DNA from: Mytilus edulis
Lineage: Eukaryota
Length of the DNA stretch: 64,000 bases
Assembly (NCBI RefSeq): GCF_963676685.1
Contig: NC_092347.1
Span: 67,456,001-67,520,000 of the forward strand
Direction: 5' to 3'
The position numbers are program-made. Shown piece after piece: positions 35,701 through 41,700 of the stretch (position 1 is the first letter of the stretch; every line of letters starts with the position of its first letter).

Positions 35701-38700
35701 TGGGCATGAAAGACCATAGCATATAAAAGGCTTGCTGACTGATATTTGTAAATATCTAACAGTTAAATTTGAAGGTTTAGTCGAATTTGTCGAAGAGCAC
35801 CGTGATTTGTTTATTTGTTTAGGTGCGATACATCATTGGGCAGATATGCCTTTACGAAAGATGTTCAAATAAGTAAACGAACATACACCATAATATCTTA
35901 TTCACATTATACCGCTGCTTAATAGATTTAACTGAAACAAATCTGGGTCACAAACCAAACCCGAGGGAAACACATCAACCTTAAGAGACAACAATGGAAC
36001 AAAATAACACTGAAATGCTACATAAACTAACGCAAACCTACATAAAAACGGACTATTTGATAACAACTACAATATTTCTGACGTAATGAGTTGAGTCTTG
36101 TTTCATTGCTAGTTTAGCTTTCCGCTTATATGGCAATGTTTAAAGAATACCGCTAAATGACAACATAACGTGACAGGAGTACAGTACAAATAAAAGCAAG
36201 AACACTCAGGACACATATCAATGCGAATTCCCACTCGGCAAAGCAGTCATATTCGGTGATAATATTCGGTGATAAGTCACTTTTGGTACTTATCACACAC
36301 ACCAGACGACGTACATGATGAACCACCATCTTAGACGTGGTAAAATTTAGTATGTTTAGATACAGACACATTGTATAGATCAATCAATTTGTAATGCTGT
36401 CAATAAAATTTACGGAGGGTCTTTTTTAATCTTTCCTCCTCATAACTCTGTGGGAGCAGTTTCTGTTAAGTAGCACACTCATGTATAAGAAGTCCTCATA
36501 GTATAAACATGCACGAGCATAACATATCAACTGAGAAATGTAAACACCATACGATATGGCAGAGGATATGTTACTGCTGAGAAATTGGAAATCGATAATT
36601 GGGAAGTTGAAATCTTCCCGTTTGACATAGATTTTTGTGTGAATTCGTCCATTTATACAAATATTGACGGTGGTATCCTTAATTTCAAGTTCACTTGGAT
36701 ATATGAGTTGTAAGTACTGACTGAAATATTGGTTATTCATTGATATGACATCATCAATACATTTGAAAGTAAAATTAAAAAAAATTTGCACGGAGCTTTT
36801 TCTTTTTGTCTTTCATGTTCTGAATGAATTCTGCTATTCACGAGTACAAAAACAAATTGGCAAATAAGGATGCACAATTAGTACCCATTGGACCGATTGT
36901 CTGTTGAAATATCAATCCTCCAAACTAAAAATATATGTTGTCGATAAAAAAAATCCAGCATTTTGGTAATATCATCTTCAGTTTATTTTCTGATAGAATC
37001 AGTGTGGATCGTCACAAAATAATAATTACTCTAACCAGAAACAAGAAACTTATATATAAGATTTCAATTTCTATAGAAAAAAGATCTATTTGATGAGATG
37101 GTGAAGTCAATGGGTCAATTGAGCATGAGGAATAGTATTTGAAAGCGTAAAAAAAAAATCAAAAGTTTAAATATTTCTGCAAAATTTCAGAGATCGTGAT
37201 ATAAGATTTACCAGTAGATCTTTAGAACTTTTATATAATTAACATATGATTGACACCACCGGTTGAATATATTTCATCAGAATGATTTTGAAGGTCAAAT
37301 TTTACTGAAGAAAAGCAACAGTCAACACTTTACAAAAGATGTTCAGTTGAGGACATCTTGACGATTCAGCTATGTGTCGTCCTTTTGAGGAGTTCTGTGA
37401 AGTTTTGTTTTCCAGCTGTATAATACATTTTGTTCGTTTTCTTTGATTTTTGTTTTTGTTAACATGTAATCCAAAAGATTCTTTAACATCATTTACAAAG
37501 GGTGAAATTTTACAAAATCACCGATTTGTGTTTCTTTTGCTACTAACATCAAAGAAACGAAGAACATCTACCGTCAATATAAAACGGAATGAAAGAAGAA
37601 TCTTGAATACGGGTTGTTGAATCTGGAAGAAATGATAAATGTTTATCCATCTGTGAGAAAGACTCTAGACAGTAGGTATCCTATTCAAAAATCGTGTTTT
37701 ATGAATAGTTCAAAAAGAAATAGAAAACATCCCATTCATAATAATGAATGAGAAATATCCTGTGATCAGTGGTGTTATCTGTGAAATGAATTTGCAAGAT
37801 CTGGTAATTGAGACCGCCGCCCATACATCAGAGAGATTGGCAGATAGCCAATAGAATAAAAAAAAATAGCCTAATAATGCAATTATTCGGAGAACAATTT
37901 TAAAAGTCTTTCAAAATTCACAATTGTTGATTATCAAAATTGAAATGAACTTGAGACAATAAATGGTTTTTTTTTTATAAGTTGAGGAAATAGTTATCAA
38001 AGGTACCAGGATTATAATTTAGTACGCCAGACGCGCGTTTCGTCTACATAAGACTCATCAGTGACGCTCAAATCAAAAATATTTTTAAAACCCAAACAAG
38101 TACAAAGTTGAAGAGCATTAAGGATCCAAAATTCCAAAAAGTTGTGCCAAATACGGCTAAGGTAATCTATGCCTGGGATAAGAAAATCCTTAGTTTTTCA
38201 AAAAGTTCAAAGTTTTGTATACAGAAAATTTATAAAAATGACCACATTATTGATATTCATGTCAACACCGAAGTGTTGACTTCTGGGCTGGTGATACCCT
38301 CGGGGACGAAACGTCCACCAGCAGTGGCATCGACCCAGTGGTGTAAATAGTTATCAAAGGTACCAGGATTATAATTTAGTACGCCAGACGCGCGTTTCGT
38401 CTACATAAGACTCATCAGTGACGCTCAAATCAAAAATATCAAAGCAATGCGGGTTTAAAAATTCACTTTTTGCATTTTTCTTACACAAATGATTTTAAAC
38501 ATGCACATACAATAAGGGGGTAAATCAACTTGTTTCTTTTTAATTAATCATAGATTACGTAACATATTAAGGACACATTTTTTAAAGAGTCTTATGTATT
38601 TCAGGTCTATTCTATATTTTTATTCTCGGGACAATTAATATAAAATTATTTTTCACAATAACGAAAAAAGAACTTAATGTCCTCAATTCTATAAAATAAA

Positions 38701-41700
38701 TTCGGTTTGATGATATACTTTACGCAACGTAAGACATATGTCTTAATGTCTGCGTATTCACTTTATTGTTTTATTGTGTATTCTATAAGATAAGATAGGA
38801 TTACAATGCGTCTGTCCTACTAAATTATTAGCCTAGTACCTTTGATAACTATTTACACCACTGCGTTGATGCCATTGCTGGTGGACGTTTCTTCCTCAAT
38901 GGCATCACCAGCCCAGCACTTCGGTGTTGACATGAATATCAACTATGTGGTCATTTTTATAAATTGCCTGTTTACAAGACTTTGAATTTGATCGAAAAAC
39001 TAAGGATTTTCTTATCCCATGCATAGATAACCTTAGCCGTATTTGGCACAACTTTTATAAAATTTGGGTGCTCAATGCTCTTCAACTATGTACTTGTTTG
39101 GCTTTATAACTATTTTTATCTGAGCGTCACTGTTGAGTCTGATGTAGACGAAACGCGCGTCTGGAGTATTAAATTATGATCCTGGTACCTTTGATAACTA
39201 ATCACACTCTCTGATGAAGAAGATGGTACCTTTGTTACACGAGGTGGATCGTTTCTAAGGCTAAAATGTCTTAGAAAGAACAAGATATTGGACTATGAAT
39301 TAAAAACTTATACTCTATACTGGTAGAATTCAGTTCTTTAAACTCTTATCTCTCTACAATTTTGTTTTACTGTTTCCCAAATATGTACAGGAATGTGCGA
39401 TGCCGTCTCGTTATATTGATACCAGGAATGTAGAAATCAAGTGAATTTTCAAAATGTTATCTATAGTTAAAAAGGTATTTGTCAAAAATGCATACACATT
39501 TGTTTTAAGTTGTGATCTTACAAAACTGTCCCAAATTAGGGGAGTGTTGCACGCTGACATATATGTTTAGCCCCGTCACATTCTGTATGTGACTGAGGTT
39601 CAATAAAACGATGCACATGATTCAACAACTGTCTTTACACATTTAGCTTCTCATTTTTAAGCGTGCATGACTCCACTAATACTTATAACGAAAGTAGTCT
39701 CAATTCATTAAATTTGACTATATCACTTGAAAAATAATACGACTCCATCAATACAGAACATTTTGTACTGACCGTTCATGTGTTCATTATATCCTAGTGA
39801 TTTTACTTTGCCCGAGTGATGCTATCTTGTGATATACTTTGAAATGCCGTTTCATACACAAATTAAACGACTCTTTAAATAAAATAAAAATATCGGAACA
39901 TATCATATACATATCTTTTATTCAATCAGTATGAATGGAGTCTTTGTACTAGTATTTTTATTAAAACTTTGAATGGATCGTGAGAATGTCATCCATGTCA
40001 TTTTTGTCACACATATTGCTGTATTCTAGCGAGAAATGTGTAACGCGTATCCTTCATCGTGTGCATATGTTATTGGAAAAAGAACTATTTTTCGGTCCTT
40101 CGTCTTTTTTCATAGTTCGTAAATTATTATTTGCTTTTAATTTACGAAATTATGATAGTCTTGCTAAACTGTTAGCAGTTTGATGATCTTCGTCAAGCAT
40201 GTTTACAATTTATTTGTACCACACAAATACCGAGATATGAGACAGACAAGACACGACAAAATGAACGCCTGTGGTATTACAACTACCCATTTCACATTTA
40301 TTGACGCAAAACAAAACCGACGAAAAAACTTTGACAATTTTTCTATAAAAGTATTTTAAAACGTTTTTTTATCAGTGTTCGTAGTTCTTACATTTTAGTT
40401 CGTCTAAAACAAAGTTTTACACACTACCACACAAATTAGTTGTCCTTATATTTAAATAAAAAAGGAACATTTAAAAAATCAGCTTATACAAAATTGCAGT
40501 TCCATTATAATTGGCGACCAGAAGAGTGTCATTTTCTCCGTCGATAAAAATAACATATGGCTGGAAGATTCCATCTCCTTTCCCCAGTATTCGTCTTCCT
40601 TTTTTCCCGTCGGGTGAAATGACGACTATACTGTTATTTCCACGACTTGCGACGTAAATATTTGAATGTTTATCAGTGGTCACACCACAGGCACTTTTCA
40701 AAATTGATTCATCTTTGAATTCCCACAGTTTCTCCCCTGTCAAGGAATAACACTTTACTGCGTTTCTGTGGGTATGATATATTTTATCCTTACATGATGT
40801 TACATAGTTCCAGTGTGCCACTGCTTTGTCATTAACCAAGAGATAATTATTTGATTTTAACAATTCCACGATACGGATACCATATAAGTACTCGCAGCAT
40901 AAAATTTGGTTGTAATGACGATTAATGCCACTGCACTTGCCGAATGTGTTGATGGTTTTGACAACTTTTTTGGATATAATATTGATGATCTGAATAACTT
41001 TCTCACCATGAAATGAAGCTGCCACGGTTAAGTCGTCGATATGTGTTACATCAATAGGATATTGTGTTGGTGTATCAATTACACTGTCCGGTTTTCCATC
41101 CTTTGTTAGAATGATCAATTGATGCTCGTAGCAGTTCACAAATATGAATTTACCTGACGGGGTCATTGAACAGCCAGTAATTTGCGAAGGAACGGTCATT
41201 TTCTGTTGTTGCGTTGGGTTGATATCAAAAATAGATCTTGGTGTAACAACTGGCATTCTAAGGAGTTGCGCTTGCTTATCTGTTTCATTCTTTAATACAA
41301 CTAATGACGATTTATTTTCTGTTGAAACTGAACAAAATTTTTGAATAGATAAAATTTTTGATAATTCGTCATGAACTTCAAGATTAATAAAAACTTGTTG
41401 GAGTCGTCCATCAACAGACAAAGACTGGAGATATTCCTCTTTCTTTTTTATTTCCACCTCAAGGATTTTAGCTCCTAAAAATGTCTGAAGATTTGATGCA
41501 TATTTCCTAATTGAACACATTTCATTCTTCAACTCACTCATATGTTTGTAGTTTTGGGTTACATTTGTAATGACAGTTTCTATTTGCCTGCTAATATCTT
41601 TTTTAGTAGCTTGCAATTCCTTAAATGACTGTATTTCTAGGAGGTCTAGGTGTTTATTTATTTTATCACGAATCTGTGTTATCTCGCTCGAAAACTTATG

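What the first reader, a model, noticed from the sequence alone, without database searches (positions are those of the whole stretch)
37991..39200. All retrozyme insertions share one 3' end 39 nt past the cleavage site and exceed one unit: a rolling-circle reverse-transcription signature
Seen: the three separate insertions (2958, 37991, and 39200 on the other strand) end on the ribozyme strand at exactly ...GGTACCTTTGATAACTA, about 39 nt 3' of the GUC cleavage site. Their 5' ends vary and their lengths are ~2.7, ~1.25 and just over 1 monomer. A linear self-cleaved monomer would end at GUC. Inference: reverse transcription starts at a defined site on a circular or multimeric template and passes the start point. 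Penelope-like RT, with fragments at 21920 and 36420, is a candidate helper.
Basis: partly seen in the sequence, partly recalled or inferred. Interest (0 to 1): 0.7.

Follow-up and report, generated by a model that had tools for sequence, protein, structure and literature searches.

The report
Retrozyme copies share one fixed end
Three copies of a small ribozyme-carrying mobile element all stop at exactly the same base just past the ribozyme's cutting site, which is the footprint expected if a Penelope-type reverse transcriptase copies them from a fixed internal starting point.

Summary
Three independent insertions of a ~355-nt hammerhead (type I) retrozyme lie at 2958-3934 (-), 37991-38439 (-) and 38808-39200 (+). 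All three end at ...GGTACCTTTGATAACTA, exactly 39 nt after the ribozyme's GUC. Their 5' ends differ, and they measure 2.75, 1.26 and 1.13 units. A fourth, decayed relic (21123-21212, about 0.25 unit) stops at about the same place.

A fixed reverse-transcription start on a template that is continuous across the cleavage site fits the data. But this is already the published behaviour of Penelope-like elements (PLEs). Frangieh 2024 showed internal initiation downstream of the hammerhead on unprocessed tandem RNA. Craig 2021 described 5'-truncated partial tandems with inverted partners. More-than-unit copying of circular RNA was proposed in 2014 and 2020.

The window cannot tell a circle from an uncleaved concatemer. 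The only hint for a circle is that the two overlapping units of the young insertion are identical (92 of 92 nt).

They are decayed, 5'-truncated Naiad-type PLEs, a clade reported to lack canonical hammerheads.

No genome-wide test was possible. This is a known kind. The explicit link between retrozyme ends and PLE internal initiation was not found in print.

The parts
2958..3934 (-). Retrozyme insertion A, 977 nt = 2.75 units (A1 partial, A2, A3). The 3' end is at 2958 and the 5' end at ~3930-3934.
2991..3034 (-). Type I hammerhead with intact core, in unit A3. Equal copies lie at 3333-3376 and 3701-3744.
   Evidence: 33 bits, gathering score 34
2958..2996 (-). The 39 nt between the GUC cleavage site and the fixed 3' end of A, ending ...GATAACTA.
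37991..38439 (-). Retrozyme insertion B, 449 nt = 1.26 units. The 92-nt overlap between its two units is 100% identical, so it is young.
38024..38067 (-). Type I hammerhead of B. A second copy lies at 38381-38424.
38808..39200 (+). Retrozyme insertion C, 393 nt = 1.13 units. It is older: 87.6% identical to B, and its own 46-nt overlap is 80% identical. It is inverted relative to B with the 5' ends facing, 368 bp apart.
39124..39167 (+). Hammerhead of C with a mutated core (CUGUUGA), 24 bits.
21123..21212 (-). Decayed relic of hammerhead plus tail, ~90 nt. Its homology stops within about 2 nt of the same 3' end, and other repeat families begin beside it.
36355..37444 (-). 5'-truncated, frame-shifted RT fragment of a Naiad-type PLE, covering residues ~640-995 of ~1006-aa relatives.
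22037..22357 (+). Short C-terminal RT fragment of the same PLE kind.
12904..13017 (-). Very short C-terminal PLE RT fragment (38 aa).
22669..23037 (-). Ancient, decayed retrozyme-like array (two units ~299 nt apart) with hammerhead relics seen by eye. Its ends cannot be mapped.
24092..24241 (-). Ancient retrozyme-like piece (monomer positions 6-186), preceded by a decayed CTGATGA-containing relic seen by eye. A different repeat abuts its 3' side.

Best explanation
A, B and C are three independent copies of a mussel-type non-LTR retrozyme: ~355-nt units, each with a type I hammerhead. Each copy was made by target-primed reverse transcription. The transcriptase did not start at an RNA 3' end. 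It started at one fixed internal site of the retrozyme RNA, 39 nt (at most 42) downstream of the ribozyme's cleavage site. That site lies in a stretch predicted to be mostly unpaired, next to an AC-rich run and a strong hairpin. Synthesis then ran 5'-ward through one to three cleavage sites and stopped at a variable point. This gives a fixed 3' end, a ragged 5' end and more than one unit. The template therefore had to be continuous across the cleavage site: either the ligated circular RNA (rolling-circle copying) or an uncleaved concatemeric transcript. This is the insertion signature of Penelope-like elements, so a PLE reverse transcriptase-endonuclease supplied in trans is the most likely helper. 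Shown here: the ends, the lengths, the independence of the copies, the ribozyme, and the presence of PLE remains. Inferred: reverse transcription, the internal start, the helper, and the form of the template.
For: The fixed end 39 nt after GUC is seen in 3 of 3 mappable insertions, with different flanks. P is about 8e-6 for random ends. A fourth decayed relic stops at about the same place. The 5' ends vary. B is longer than one unit and its duplicated 92 nt are identical, so the extra length dates from the insertion itself rather than from later unequal crossing-over. Units are 349-357 nt at 36-38% GC with a type I hammerhead. This matches the ~350-390-bp repeats reported for Mytilus galloprovincialis retrozymes (PMC7229834 passages). 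Published PLE mechanism (PMC11167929 main text): RT starts at fixed internal sites in an AC-rich stem-loop 85-92 nt past the hammerhead cut. The start site is not homologous to the target. Both DNA strands are cut and extended, and genomic insertion ends fall on the start sites. Published PLE anatomy (PMC8557442 passage): heavy 5' truncation, partial tandems, an inverted 5'-truncated copy alongside, and a 30-40-bp tail. Here B and C are inverted with their 5' ends facing. Positions 28-48 after the cut have unpaired probability mostly 0.6-0.9 in 2 of 3 units folded as circles. PLE RT remains are in the window.
Against: There are only three mappable copies, from one 64-kb window. No genome-wide histogram could be made. 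No target-site duplication of 6 nt or more was found, and no empty site, so the insertion mechanism is inferred from shape alone. No second start site or alternative 'tail' end was seen. The flanks are not clearly AT-rich: by my count, 50%, 80% and 60% AT in the first 20 nt, against 68.5% for the window. The only PLE remains in the window are of the Naiad type, reported to lack canonical hammerheads. No GIY-YIG domain was found in 114 window ORFs of 65 aa or more (9, 105). Four ORFs inside the retrozymes were left out of that count. B and C differ in age (87.6% identity, against 100% within B), so they are not one double-strand priming event. In unit A3 the start site is predicted to be less open.
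Confidence: 0.62

Rival explanations
1. Same enzyme and same fixed internal start, but the template is specifically the monomeric circular RNA and the transcriptase goes round it more than once. This is true rolling-circle reverse transcription.
For: B's two units are identical over 92 of 92 nt. If the donor were a genomic array as heterogeneous as A (units 94-96.5% alike), zero differences in 92 nt has P about 0.005-0.04, rising to 0.16 at 2% heterogeneity. Each copy crosses 1-3 cleavage sites that must be uncut or religated. In mussels the circular form is reported to be far more abundant than the linear form (PMC7229834 passage). The model was proposed in PMC4209133, PMC7229834 and PMC7761336.
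Against: A young, homogeneous donor array would give the same identity. Units within A (94-96.5%) and within C (80% over 46 nt) fit either model once age is allowed for. For the one PLE tested, unprocessed tandem RNA was the dominant substrate and hammerhead mutants inserted normally (PMC11167929). Circles were not tested there.
Confidence: 0.3
2. Same enzyme and same start site, but the template is an uncleaved linear concatemer transcribed from a genomic tandem array, as shown in vitro for the anole PLE.
For: PMC11167929: a multi-copy transcript is the proposed template, and no reads end at the hammerhead cut. The mussel hammerhead is reported to cleave rather slowly (kobs ~0.1 per min; PMC7229834 passage). 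A has one site, possibly two, where two units share a state against the third (read by eye in the alignment). A heterogeneous donor array would give this directly.
Against: B's units are identical. A 2.75-unit copy needs three uncleaved sites in one RNA. The shared states within A can also come from later gene conversion or unequal crossing-over.
Confidence: 0.3
3. The retrozyme is moved like a SINE by a LINE, for example the APE-type LINE at 6054-9836. The fixed end would be the true 3' end of a linear RNA made by termination or processing 39 nt past the ribozyme.
For: An APE+RT+zf-RVT LINE lies 2 kb from insertion A. PMC7229834 leaves LINEs open as helpers. The 5' truncation also fits.
Against: There is no poly(A) or microsatellite at any of the 3 ends. 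Nothing near the LINE resembles the retrozyme tail. A linear RNA ending at +39 and longer than one unit still needs uncleaved ribozyme sites. No run of four or more T stands at the end.
Confidence: 0.06
4. No reverse transcription is involved. The blocks would be DNA-level products: satellite pieces moved by segmental duplication or reinserted circular DNA, or Helitron-like rolling-circle DNA transposition. The extra units would come from later unequal crossing-over.
For: The surroundings are full of old duplications, for example 1800-4260 against 44741-45459. A's unit number could have changed after insertion.
Against: Three different flanks share one exact end. B's extra 0.26 unit is identical to its parent unit. 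Reinserted DNA circles would break at random positions. By eye, only 1 of 3 ends could be read as a Helitron CTRR|T end (consensus recalled), and the other strand starts TAGTT rather than TC.
Confidence: 0.04

Closest known systems
Metazoan non-LTR retrozymes, mussel type (Cervera & de la Pena 2020, PMC7229834)
   Same: Short tandem units of ~350 nt, low GC, one type I hammerhead per unit, no coding capacity, and several dispersed copies (paper passages).
   Different: In the passages I read, the paper gives no position for the ends of genomic copies. It says TSDs are present only sometimes. Its model figure (Suppl. No sequence comparison with the published mussel clones was possible.
Penelope-like element insertion by internal initiation (Frangieh et al. 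2024, PMC11167929)
   Same: The fixed 3' end lies downstream of the hammerhead cut and not at an RNA end. The start is beside an AC-rich stretch. The template is longer than one unit. The 5' end is truncated. Inverted copies sit nearby.
   Different: The distance from cut to start is 39 nt here, against 85-92 nt there. Only one start site is seen here, against two separated by the 30-40-nt 'tail'. The element here is non-coding and non-autonomous. A circular template was not considered there.
PLE genomic anatomy: pseudo-LTRs, inverted 5'-truncated partner, tail (Craig et al. 2021, PMC8557442)
   Same: Partial tandem, heavy 5' truncation, and an inverted partner with 5' ends facing (B and C).
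   Different: B and C are 368 bp apart and differ in age. No alternative tail end was seen. The PLE remains in the window are Naiads, which that paper reports to lack canonical hammerheads.
SINE-LINE partnership
   Same: A non-autonomous RNA is copied in trans from a defined 3' module, with 5' truncation.
   Different: There is no poly(A), no shared LINE tail, more than one unit is copied, and the start is internal.

Membership tests
Non-LTR (metazoan) retrozyme | Type I hammerhead ribozyme in each repeat unit | tested here: met
   5 of 6 full hammerheads score 33 bits (RF00163, gathering score 34, E 2.4e-4 over the window) with an intact CUGAUGA...GAAAC...GUC core. The sixth scores 24 bits with a core mutation. 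All are 1 bit or more below Rfam's curated cut-off.
Non-LTR (metazoan) retrozyme | Short head-to-tail repeats of 150-450 bp and low GC, without LTR, PBS or PPT | tested here: met
   Units of 349-357 nt at 36-38% GC, head to tail. No terminal repeats other than the units themselves. PBS and PPT were not searched for specifically.
Non-LTR (metazoan) retrozyme | No protein-coding capacity | tested here: inconclusive
   The four stop-free frames of 65 aa or more inside the retrozymes (for example 38018-38347) were not scanned. By composition they look like chance frames.
Non-LTR (metazoan) retrozyme | Expressed, self-cleaved and circularised RNA | not testable with these tools
   No transcript data were available. 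Folding as a circle gives -72 to -75 kcal/mol, which proves nothing.
PLE-type insertion (internal initiation signature) | Insertion 3' ends pile at a fixed internal site downstream of the hammerhead | tested here: met
   3 of 3 mappable copies end 39 nt after GUC, and 1 relic ends approximately there. n is small.
PLE-type insertion (internal initiation signature) | 5' truncation and partial tandem (more than unit length) | tested here: met
   5' ends at three different unit positions. Lengths are 2.75, 1.26 and 1.13 units, and the relic is ~0.25 unit.
PLE-type insertion (internal initiation signature) | Inverted 5'-truncated copy immediately adjacent to the 5' end | tested here: inconclusive
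   B and C are inverted with 5' ends facing, but they are 368 bp apart and differ in age. An 11-nt inverted match to the terminus lies 6 nt from A's 5' end (3940-3950). It is not above whole-flank shuffles: 92 of 200 reach its score.
PLE-type insertion (internal initiation signature) | Optional 30-40-bp tail (two alternative start sites) | tested here: not met
   All three copies use one end, and no second end class was seen. Three copies are too few to exclude one.
PLE-type insertion (internal initiation signature) | AT-rich or microsatellite target | tested here: inconclusive
   The first 20 flank nt are 50%, 80% and 60% AT, against 68.5% for the window. No (TA)n was seen (counted by eye).
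Naiad-clade PLE (for the RT fragments) | N-terminal GIY-YIG endonuclease with C-terminal RT | tested here: met
   This was met in relatives only. 3 of 3 full-length relatives scanned have GIY-YIG at ~129-224 and RT at ~640-857. The window fragment itself holds only the RT C-terminal third.
Naiad-clade PLE (for the RT fragments) | CxC motif and a DKA motif with Cys 8 residues downstream | tested here: met
   The DKA motif with Cys at +8 was read by eye in relatives P0009 and P0007, and the CDC motif in P0009 only, because P0007 starts downstream of it. The criteria come from PMC8557442 passages. That part of the protein is not present in the window.
SINE mobilised by a LINE | 3' poly(A), microsatellite, or a tail shared with a LINE | tested here: not met
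   None at 3 of 3 ends. No similarity to the LINE region 5400-9836.
Helitron | 5' TC, 3' CTRR with a hairpin, insertion between A and T | tested here: not met
   By eye, 1 of 3 ends could be read as CTAA|T. The other strand starts TAGTT. The consensus is recalled, not taken from a call.

The most novel reading that the evidence does not exclude
The abundant circular retrozyme RNA of bivalves is itself the template. A PLE reverse transcriptase binds the hairpin just 3' of position +39, starts there without homology to the target, and rolls round the circle. On this reading the +39 end is the retrozyme's counterpart of the PLE 'tail' boundary. It would be the first sequence-level mark tying non-LTR retrozymes to PLE internal initiation. 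In a genome dominated by hammerhead-less Naiads, the helper might even be a Naiad, with the hammerhead module parasitising it.
Probability: 0.25. Interest if true: 0.6.

Novelty: new member of a known kind. Interest (0 to 1): 0.4.

Why it matters
Which autonomous element moves animal retrozymes is still argued from co-occurrence and sequence kinship. PMC7761336 states that their repeats show no conserved motif that points to a helper. The 2026 preprint 10.64898/2026.07.22.740005 does not analyse ends, and has 0 occurrences of 'tail' or 'internal initiation'. A fixed end just downstream of the hammerhead would be a mechanistic footprint linking retrozymes to the one enzyme class known to start reverse transcription internally. 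It would also give a concrete site to test in vitro. It does not change the picture. It fills a gap in a model that is already drawn.

Tried and rejected
1. TSD search at all four junction pairings found nothing of 6 nt or more, except an 8-mer at B that lies partly inside the element.

2. Empty-site approach. The region around A has a paralogue at 44741-45459, but homology stops 110 nt before A and resumes 230 nt after it, so there are no exact boundaries.

3. Alignment of every flank to a dimer, on both strands. None clearly exceeds mononucleotide shuffles. The best is B's 3' flank, where 5 of 200 shuffles reach its score. For C's 3' flank 19 of 200 do, and for A's inverted 11-mer 92 of 200 do.

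4. A 16-19-nt match between the B-C spacer and the 51.7k repeat is within the shuffle range.

5. The three PLE 3' regions in the window do not align with each other, so no PLE 3' end could be compared with the retrozyme tail.

6. The copies at 15k and 51.7k are one large duplication, and are uninformative for ends.

7. An apparent separate 'module family' that seemed to start at the retrozyme's end turned out to be ancient retrozyme arrays with hammerhead relics.

8. Unit-to-unit divergence as a test of circle against concatemer was inconclusive.

9. The Rfam gathering threshold gives no hit at all in the window. The hammerheads appear only with the E-value threshold.

10. The protein Atlas gave only RT-type and unnamed eukaryotic clusters.

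They may hold the model figure, mussel retrozyme sequences and PLE tables that bear on novelty.

ORFs were scanned one by one.

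
Full report
**What is there.** The window is 64,000 bases, 31% G+C, with no N.

The quoted 17-mer occurs six times within 2 mismatches, against none expected by chance. A monomer taken from 37991-38347 finds three blocks by BLAST and by an nhmmer profile:
- A: 2958-3934 on the minus strand
- B: 37991-38439 on the minus strand
- C: 38808-39200 on the plus strand

Units are 355, 357 and 349 nt at 36-38% G+C. 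The blocks are 977, 449 and 393 nt, that is 2.75, 1.26 and 1.13 units.

Each unit carries a type I hammerhead. Five copies score 33 bits against Rfam RF00163, one bit under the curated cut-off, so the default scan shows nothing. Their core is intact. The single full copy in C scores 24 bits and has a core change. Helix III is two pairs with a palindromic GCGC loop. That is the usual animal form according to PMC4209133 (passage).

**The observation.** On the ribozyme strand all three blocks end ...GATAACTA, with exactly 39 nt after the last GUC. After that the flanks differ: TGGCTAGG, TTTCCTCA and ATCACACT. One to three further bases could belong to either side, so the end lies at +39 to +42.

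The 5' ends sit at unit positions ~93-98, 264-266 and 313. With random ends on a 357-nt circle, three identical ends have a probability near 8e-6.

A fourth, decayed piece at 21123-21212 (minus) keeps the hammerhead relic and the tail. It loses homology within about 2 nt of the same place, and other repeat families begin beside it. It is only about a quarter of a unit, so 'all exceed one unit' is true only of the three well-kept copies.

Older relics cannot be mapped. They lie at 22669-23037, 24092-24241, 50946-51072, 51695-51806 and its duplicate 15053-15121.

**Ages and independence.** B's overlapping 92 nt are identical between its two units. C's 46-nt overlap is 80% identical. B and C are 87.6% alike. 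A's units are 94-96.5% alike, and 92-93% like B.

So B is young and C is old, and they are not products of one event although they lie inverted only 368 bp apart. Two of three insertions falling within 400 bp has a chance of about 0.04 before orientation is considered.

B shows that the more-than-unit length arose at insertion and not by later unequal crossing-over.

**What the shape implies.** A self-cleaved linear monomer ends at GUC and cannot give a copy that runs through the cleavage site. B crosses two such sites and A three.

The template was therefore continuous across the site, and copying began at one internal position. Folding the unit as a circle puts positions 28-48 after the cut mostly unpaired in two of three units, less so in A3. 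This stretch lies between a small hairpin and a long stable one, and an AC-rich run (ACACCAC) follows the start. This is only a prediction.

**Comparison with the literature.**
- PMC7229834 (passages) describes non-LTR retrozymes. The mussel Mytilus galloprovincialis has ~5000 type I hammerheads in ~350-390-bp repeats and very abundant circular RNA. The paper proposes that a primed circle gives tandem cDNAs, with LINEs or PLEs as helpers.
- PMC4209133 (passages) proposed circular templates and more-than-unit copying for PLEs in 2014. It also noted paired hammerheads 100-700 bp apart on opposite strands.
- PMC7761336 (passages) says the animal repeats show no motif that points to a helper.
- PMC8557442 (passages) lists the PLE hallmarks: heavy 5' truncation, partial tandems, an inverted 5'-truncated copy alongside, and a 30-40-bp tail. 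It reports that Naiads lack canonical hammerheads.
- PMC11167929 (parts 1-2 of the main text read) shows that a purified anole PLE starts reverse transcription at two fixed internal sites in an AC-rich stem-loop at +111 to +118 of the ORF, with the hammerhead cut at +26. The start has no homology to the target. Unprocessed tandem RNA is the dominant substrate, both DNA strands are cut and extended, and genomic ends fall on those sites.
- The 2026 preprint 10.64898/2026.07.22.740005 (sections 3, 14 and 16 read) argues from co-occurrence and trees that retrozymes derive from PLE pseudo-LTRs. It does not analyse ends.
- No paper in the library holds both 'retrozyme' and 'internal initiation'.

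**Reading.** The fixed end, the ragged 5' end, the extra length and the inverted neighbour are the PLE signature carried by a non-coding hammerhead repeat. I therefore take these as retrozyme copies made by a PLE-type enzyme that starts internally 39 nt past the cut.

Whether the template was the circle or an uncleaved concatemer is open. B's identical units lean towards a circle or a very homogeneous donor: P is 0.005-0.16 for 5.5-2% donor heterogeneity. The in vitro work leans towards concatemers. The divergence within A and C fits both.

**The proposed helper.** The frame at 36429-36812 and its neighbours match RT proteins. Relatives carry the DKA motif with a cysteine eight residues on, and the one that reaches far enough upstream (P0009) also carries a CDC motif. 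Three of three full-length relatives have an N-terminal GIY-YIG domain and a C-terminal RT. That is the Naiad architecture.

The window piece at 36355-37444 covers only residues ~640-995, in several frames. The pieces at 22037-22357 and 12904-13017 are smaller still. No GIY-YIG was found in 114 of the 118 stop-free frames of 65 aa or more. The four frames inside the retrozymes were left out.

So PLEs are present but dead here, and they belong to the clade without canonical hammerheads. An APE-type LINE at 6054-9836 is also present. It shares nothing with the retrozyme tail, and no copy has a poly(A).

**Limits.**
- There are three copies from one window.
- No TSDs were found, and no empty site.
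- No flank signal rises above shuffles.
- No eukaryotic genome collection was on hand.

**Verdict.** 'Rolling circle' remains unproven. The new element is small: a concrete start site at +39 in a retrozyme.

Noticed in passing
window 3940-3950 (+): There is an exact 11-nt inverted match to the retrozyme terminus (TGATAACTATT), 6 nt beyond A's 5' end and facing outward, like a tiny inverted partner. Taken as a specific hypothesis it is unlikely by chance. It is not above whole-flank shuffles: 92 of 200 reach its score.
   Followed up: partly
window 4717-4727 (+): A second exact copy of the terminal 11-mer TTTGATAACTA lies ~780 bp from A. Nothing around it resembles the retrozyme, so it may be chance.
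   Followed up: partly
window 38437-38444 and 37995-38002: B's 5' junction reads CTTTGATA on the ribozyme strand, the same 8-mer as in its 3' terminus. This could be junction microhomology or chance.
   Followed up: no
window 39224-39250 (+): 24 nt past C's end stands GGTACCTTTG followed by TTACAC, like the terminus with 8 nt deleted. 19 of 200 shuffles reach the score. It may be an older relic at the target.
   Followed up: partly
window 3313-3325 (-), unit A2: The middle unit of A lacks 13 nt (CCTGGTACCTTTG) of the tail just before the start site. That is why the 17-mer is missing there.
   Followed up: no
window 38326-38336 (-) and equivalents in the other units: GGGTCGATGCC, 12 nt after the fixed end, resembles the Pol III B-box consensus (recalled, not tested). 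This could bear on how the repeats are transcribed.
   Followed up: no
window 6054-9836 (-): A non-LTR retrotransposon with APE endonuclease, RT and zf-RVT domains, split over three overlapping frames.
   Followed up: partly
window 27550-31451 (-) and 40474-42195 (-): Probable host exons: immunoglobulin-domain frames at 27550-27873, 30447-30758 and 30927-31451, and a 574-aa frame with a B-box zinc finger. The exons were not joined.
   Followed up: no
window 14967-16500 vs 51593-53533; 1800-4260 vs 44741-45459: Large old duplications (78-87% identity) within the window. The first carries a decayed hammerhead relic in both copies.
   Followed up: partly
window 18001-18779: A tandem repeat of 385-bp period, 2 copies, 85% alike, with no hammerhead hit.
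   Followed up: no
window 60951-61106: A long palindromic hairpin gives weak plant-miRNA model hits on both strands, far below their cut-offs. It is probably an inverted-repeat element.
   Followed up: no
window 21680-21808 (+) and 22457-22645 (-): An inverted pair of a short repeat family that also occurs at 12100-12161 and 20937-21004. It flanks the small PLE fragment.
   Followed up: no
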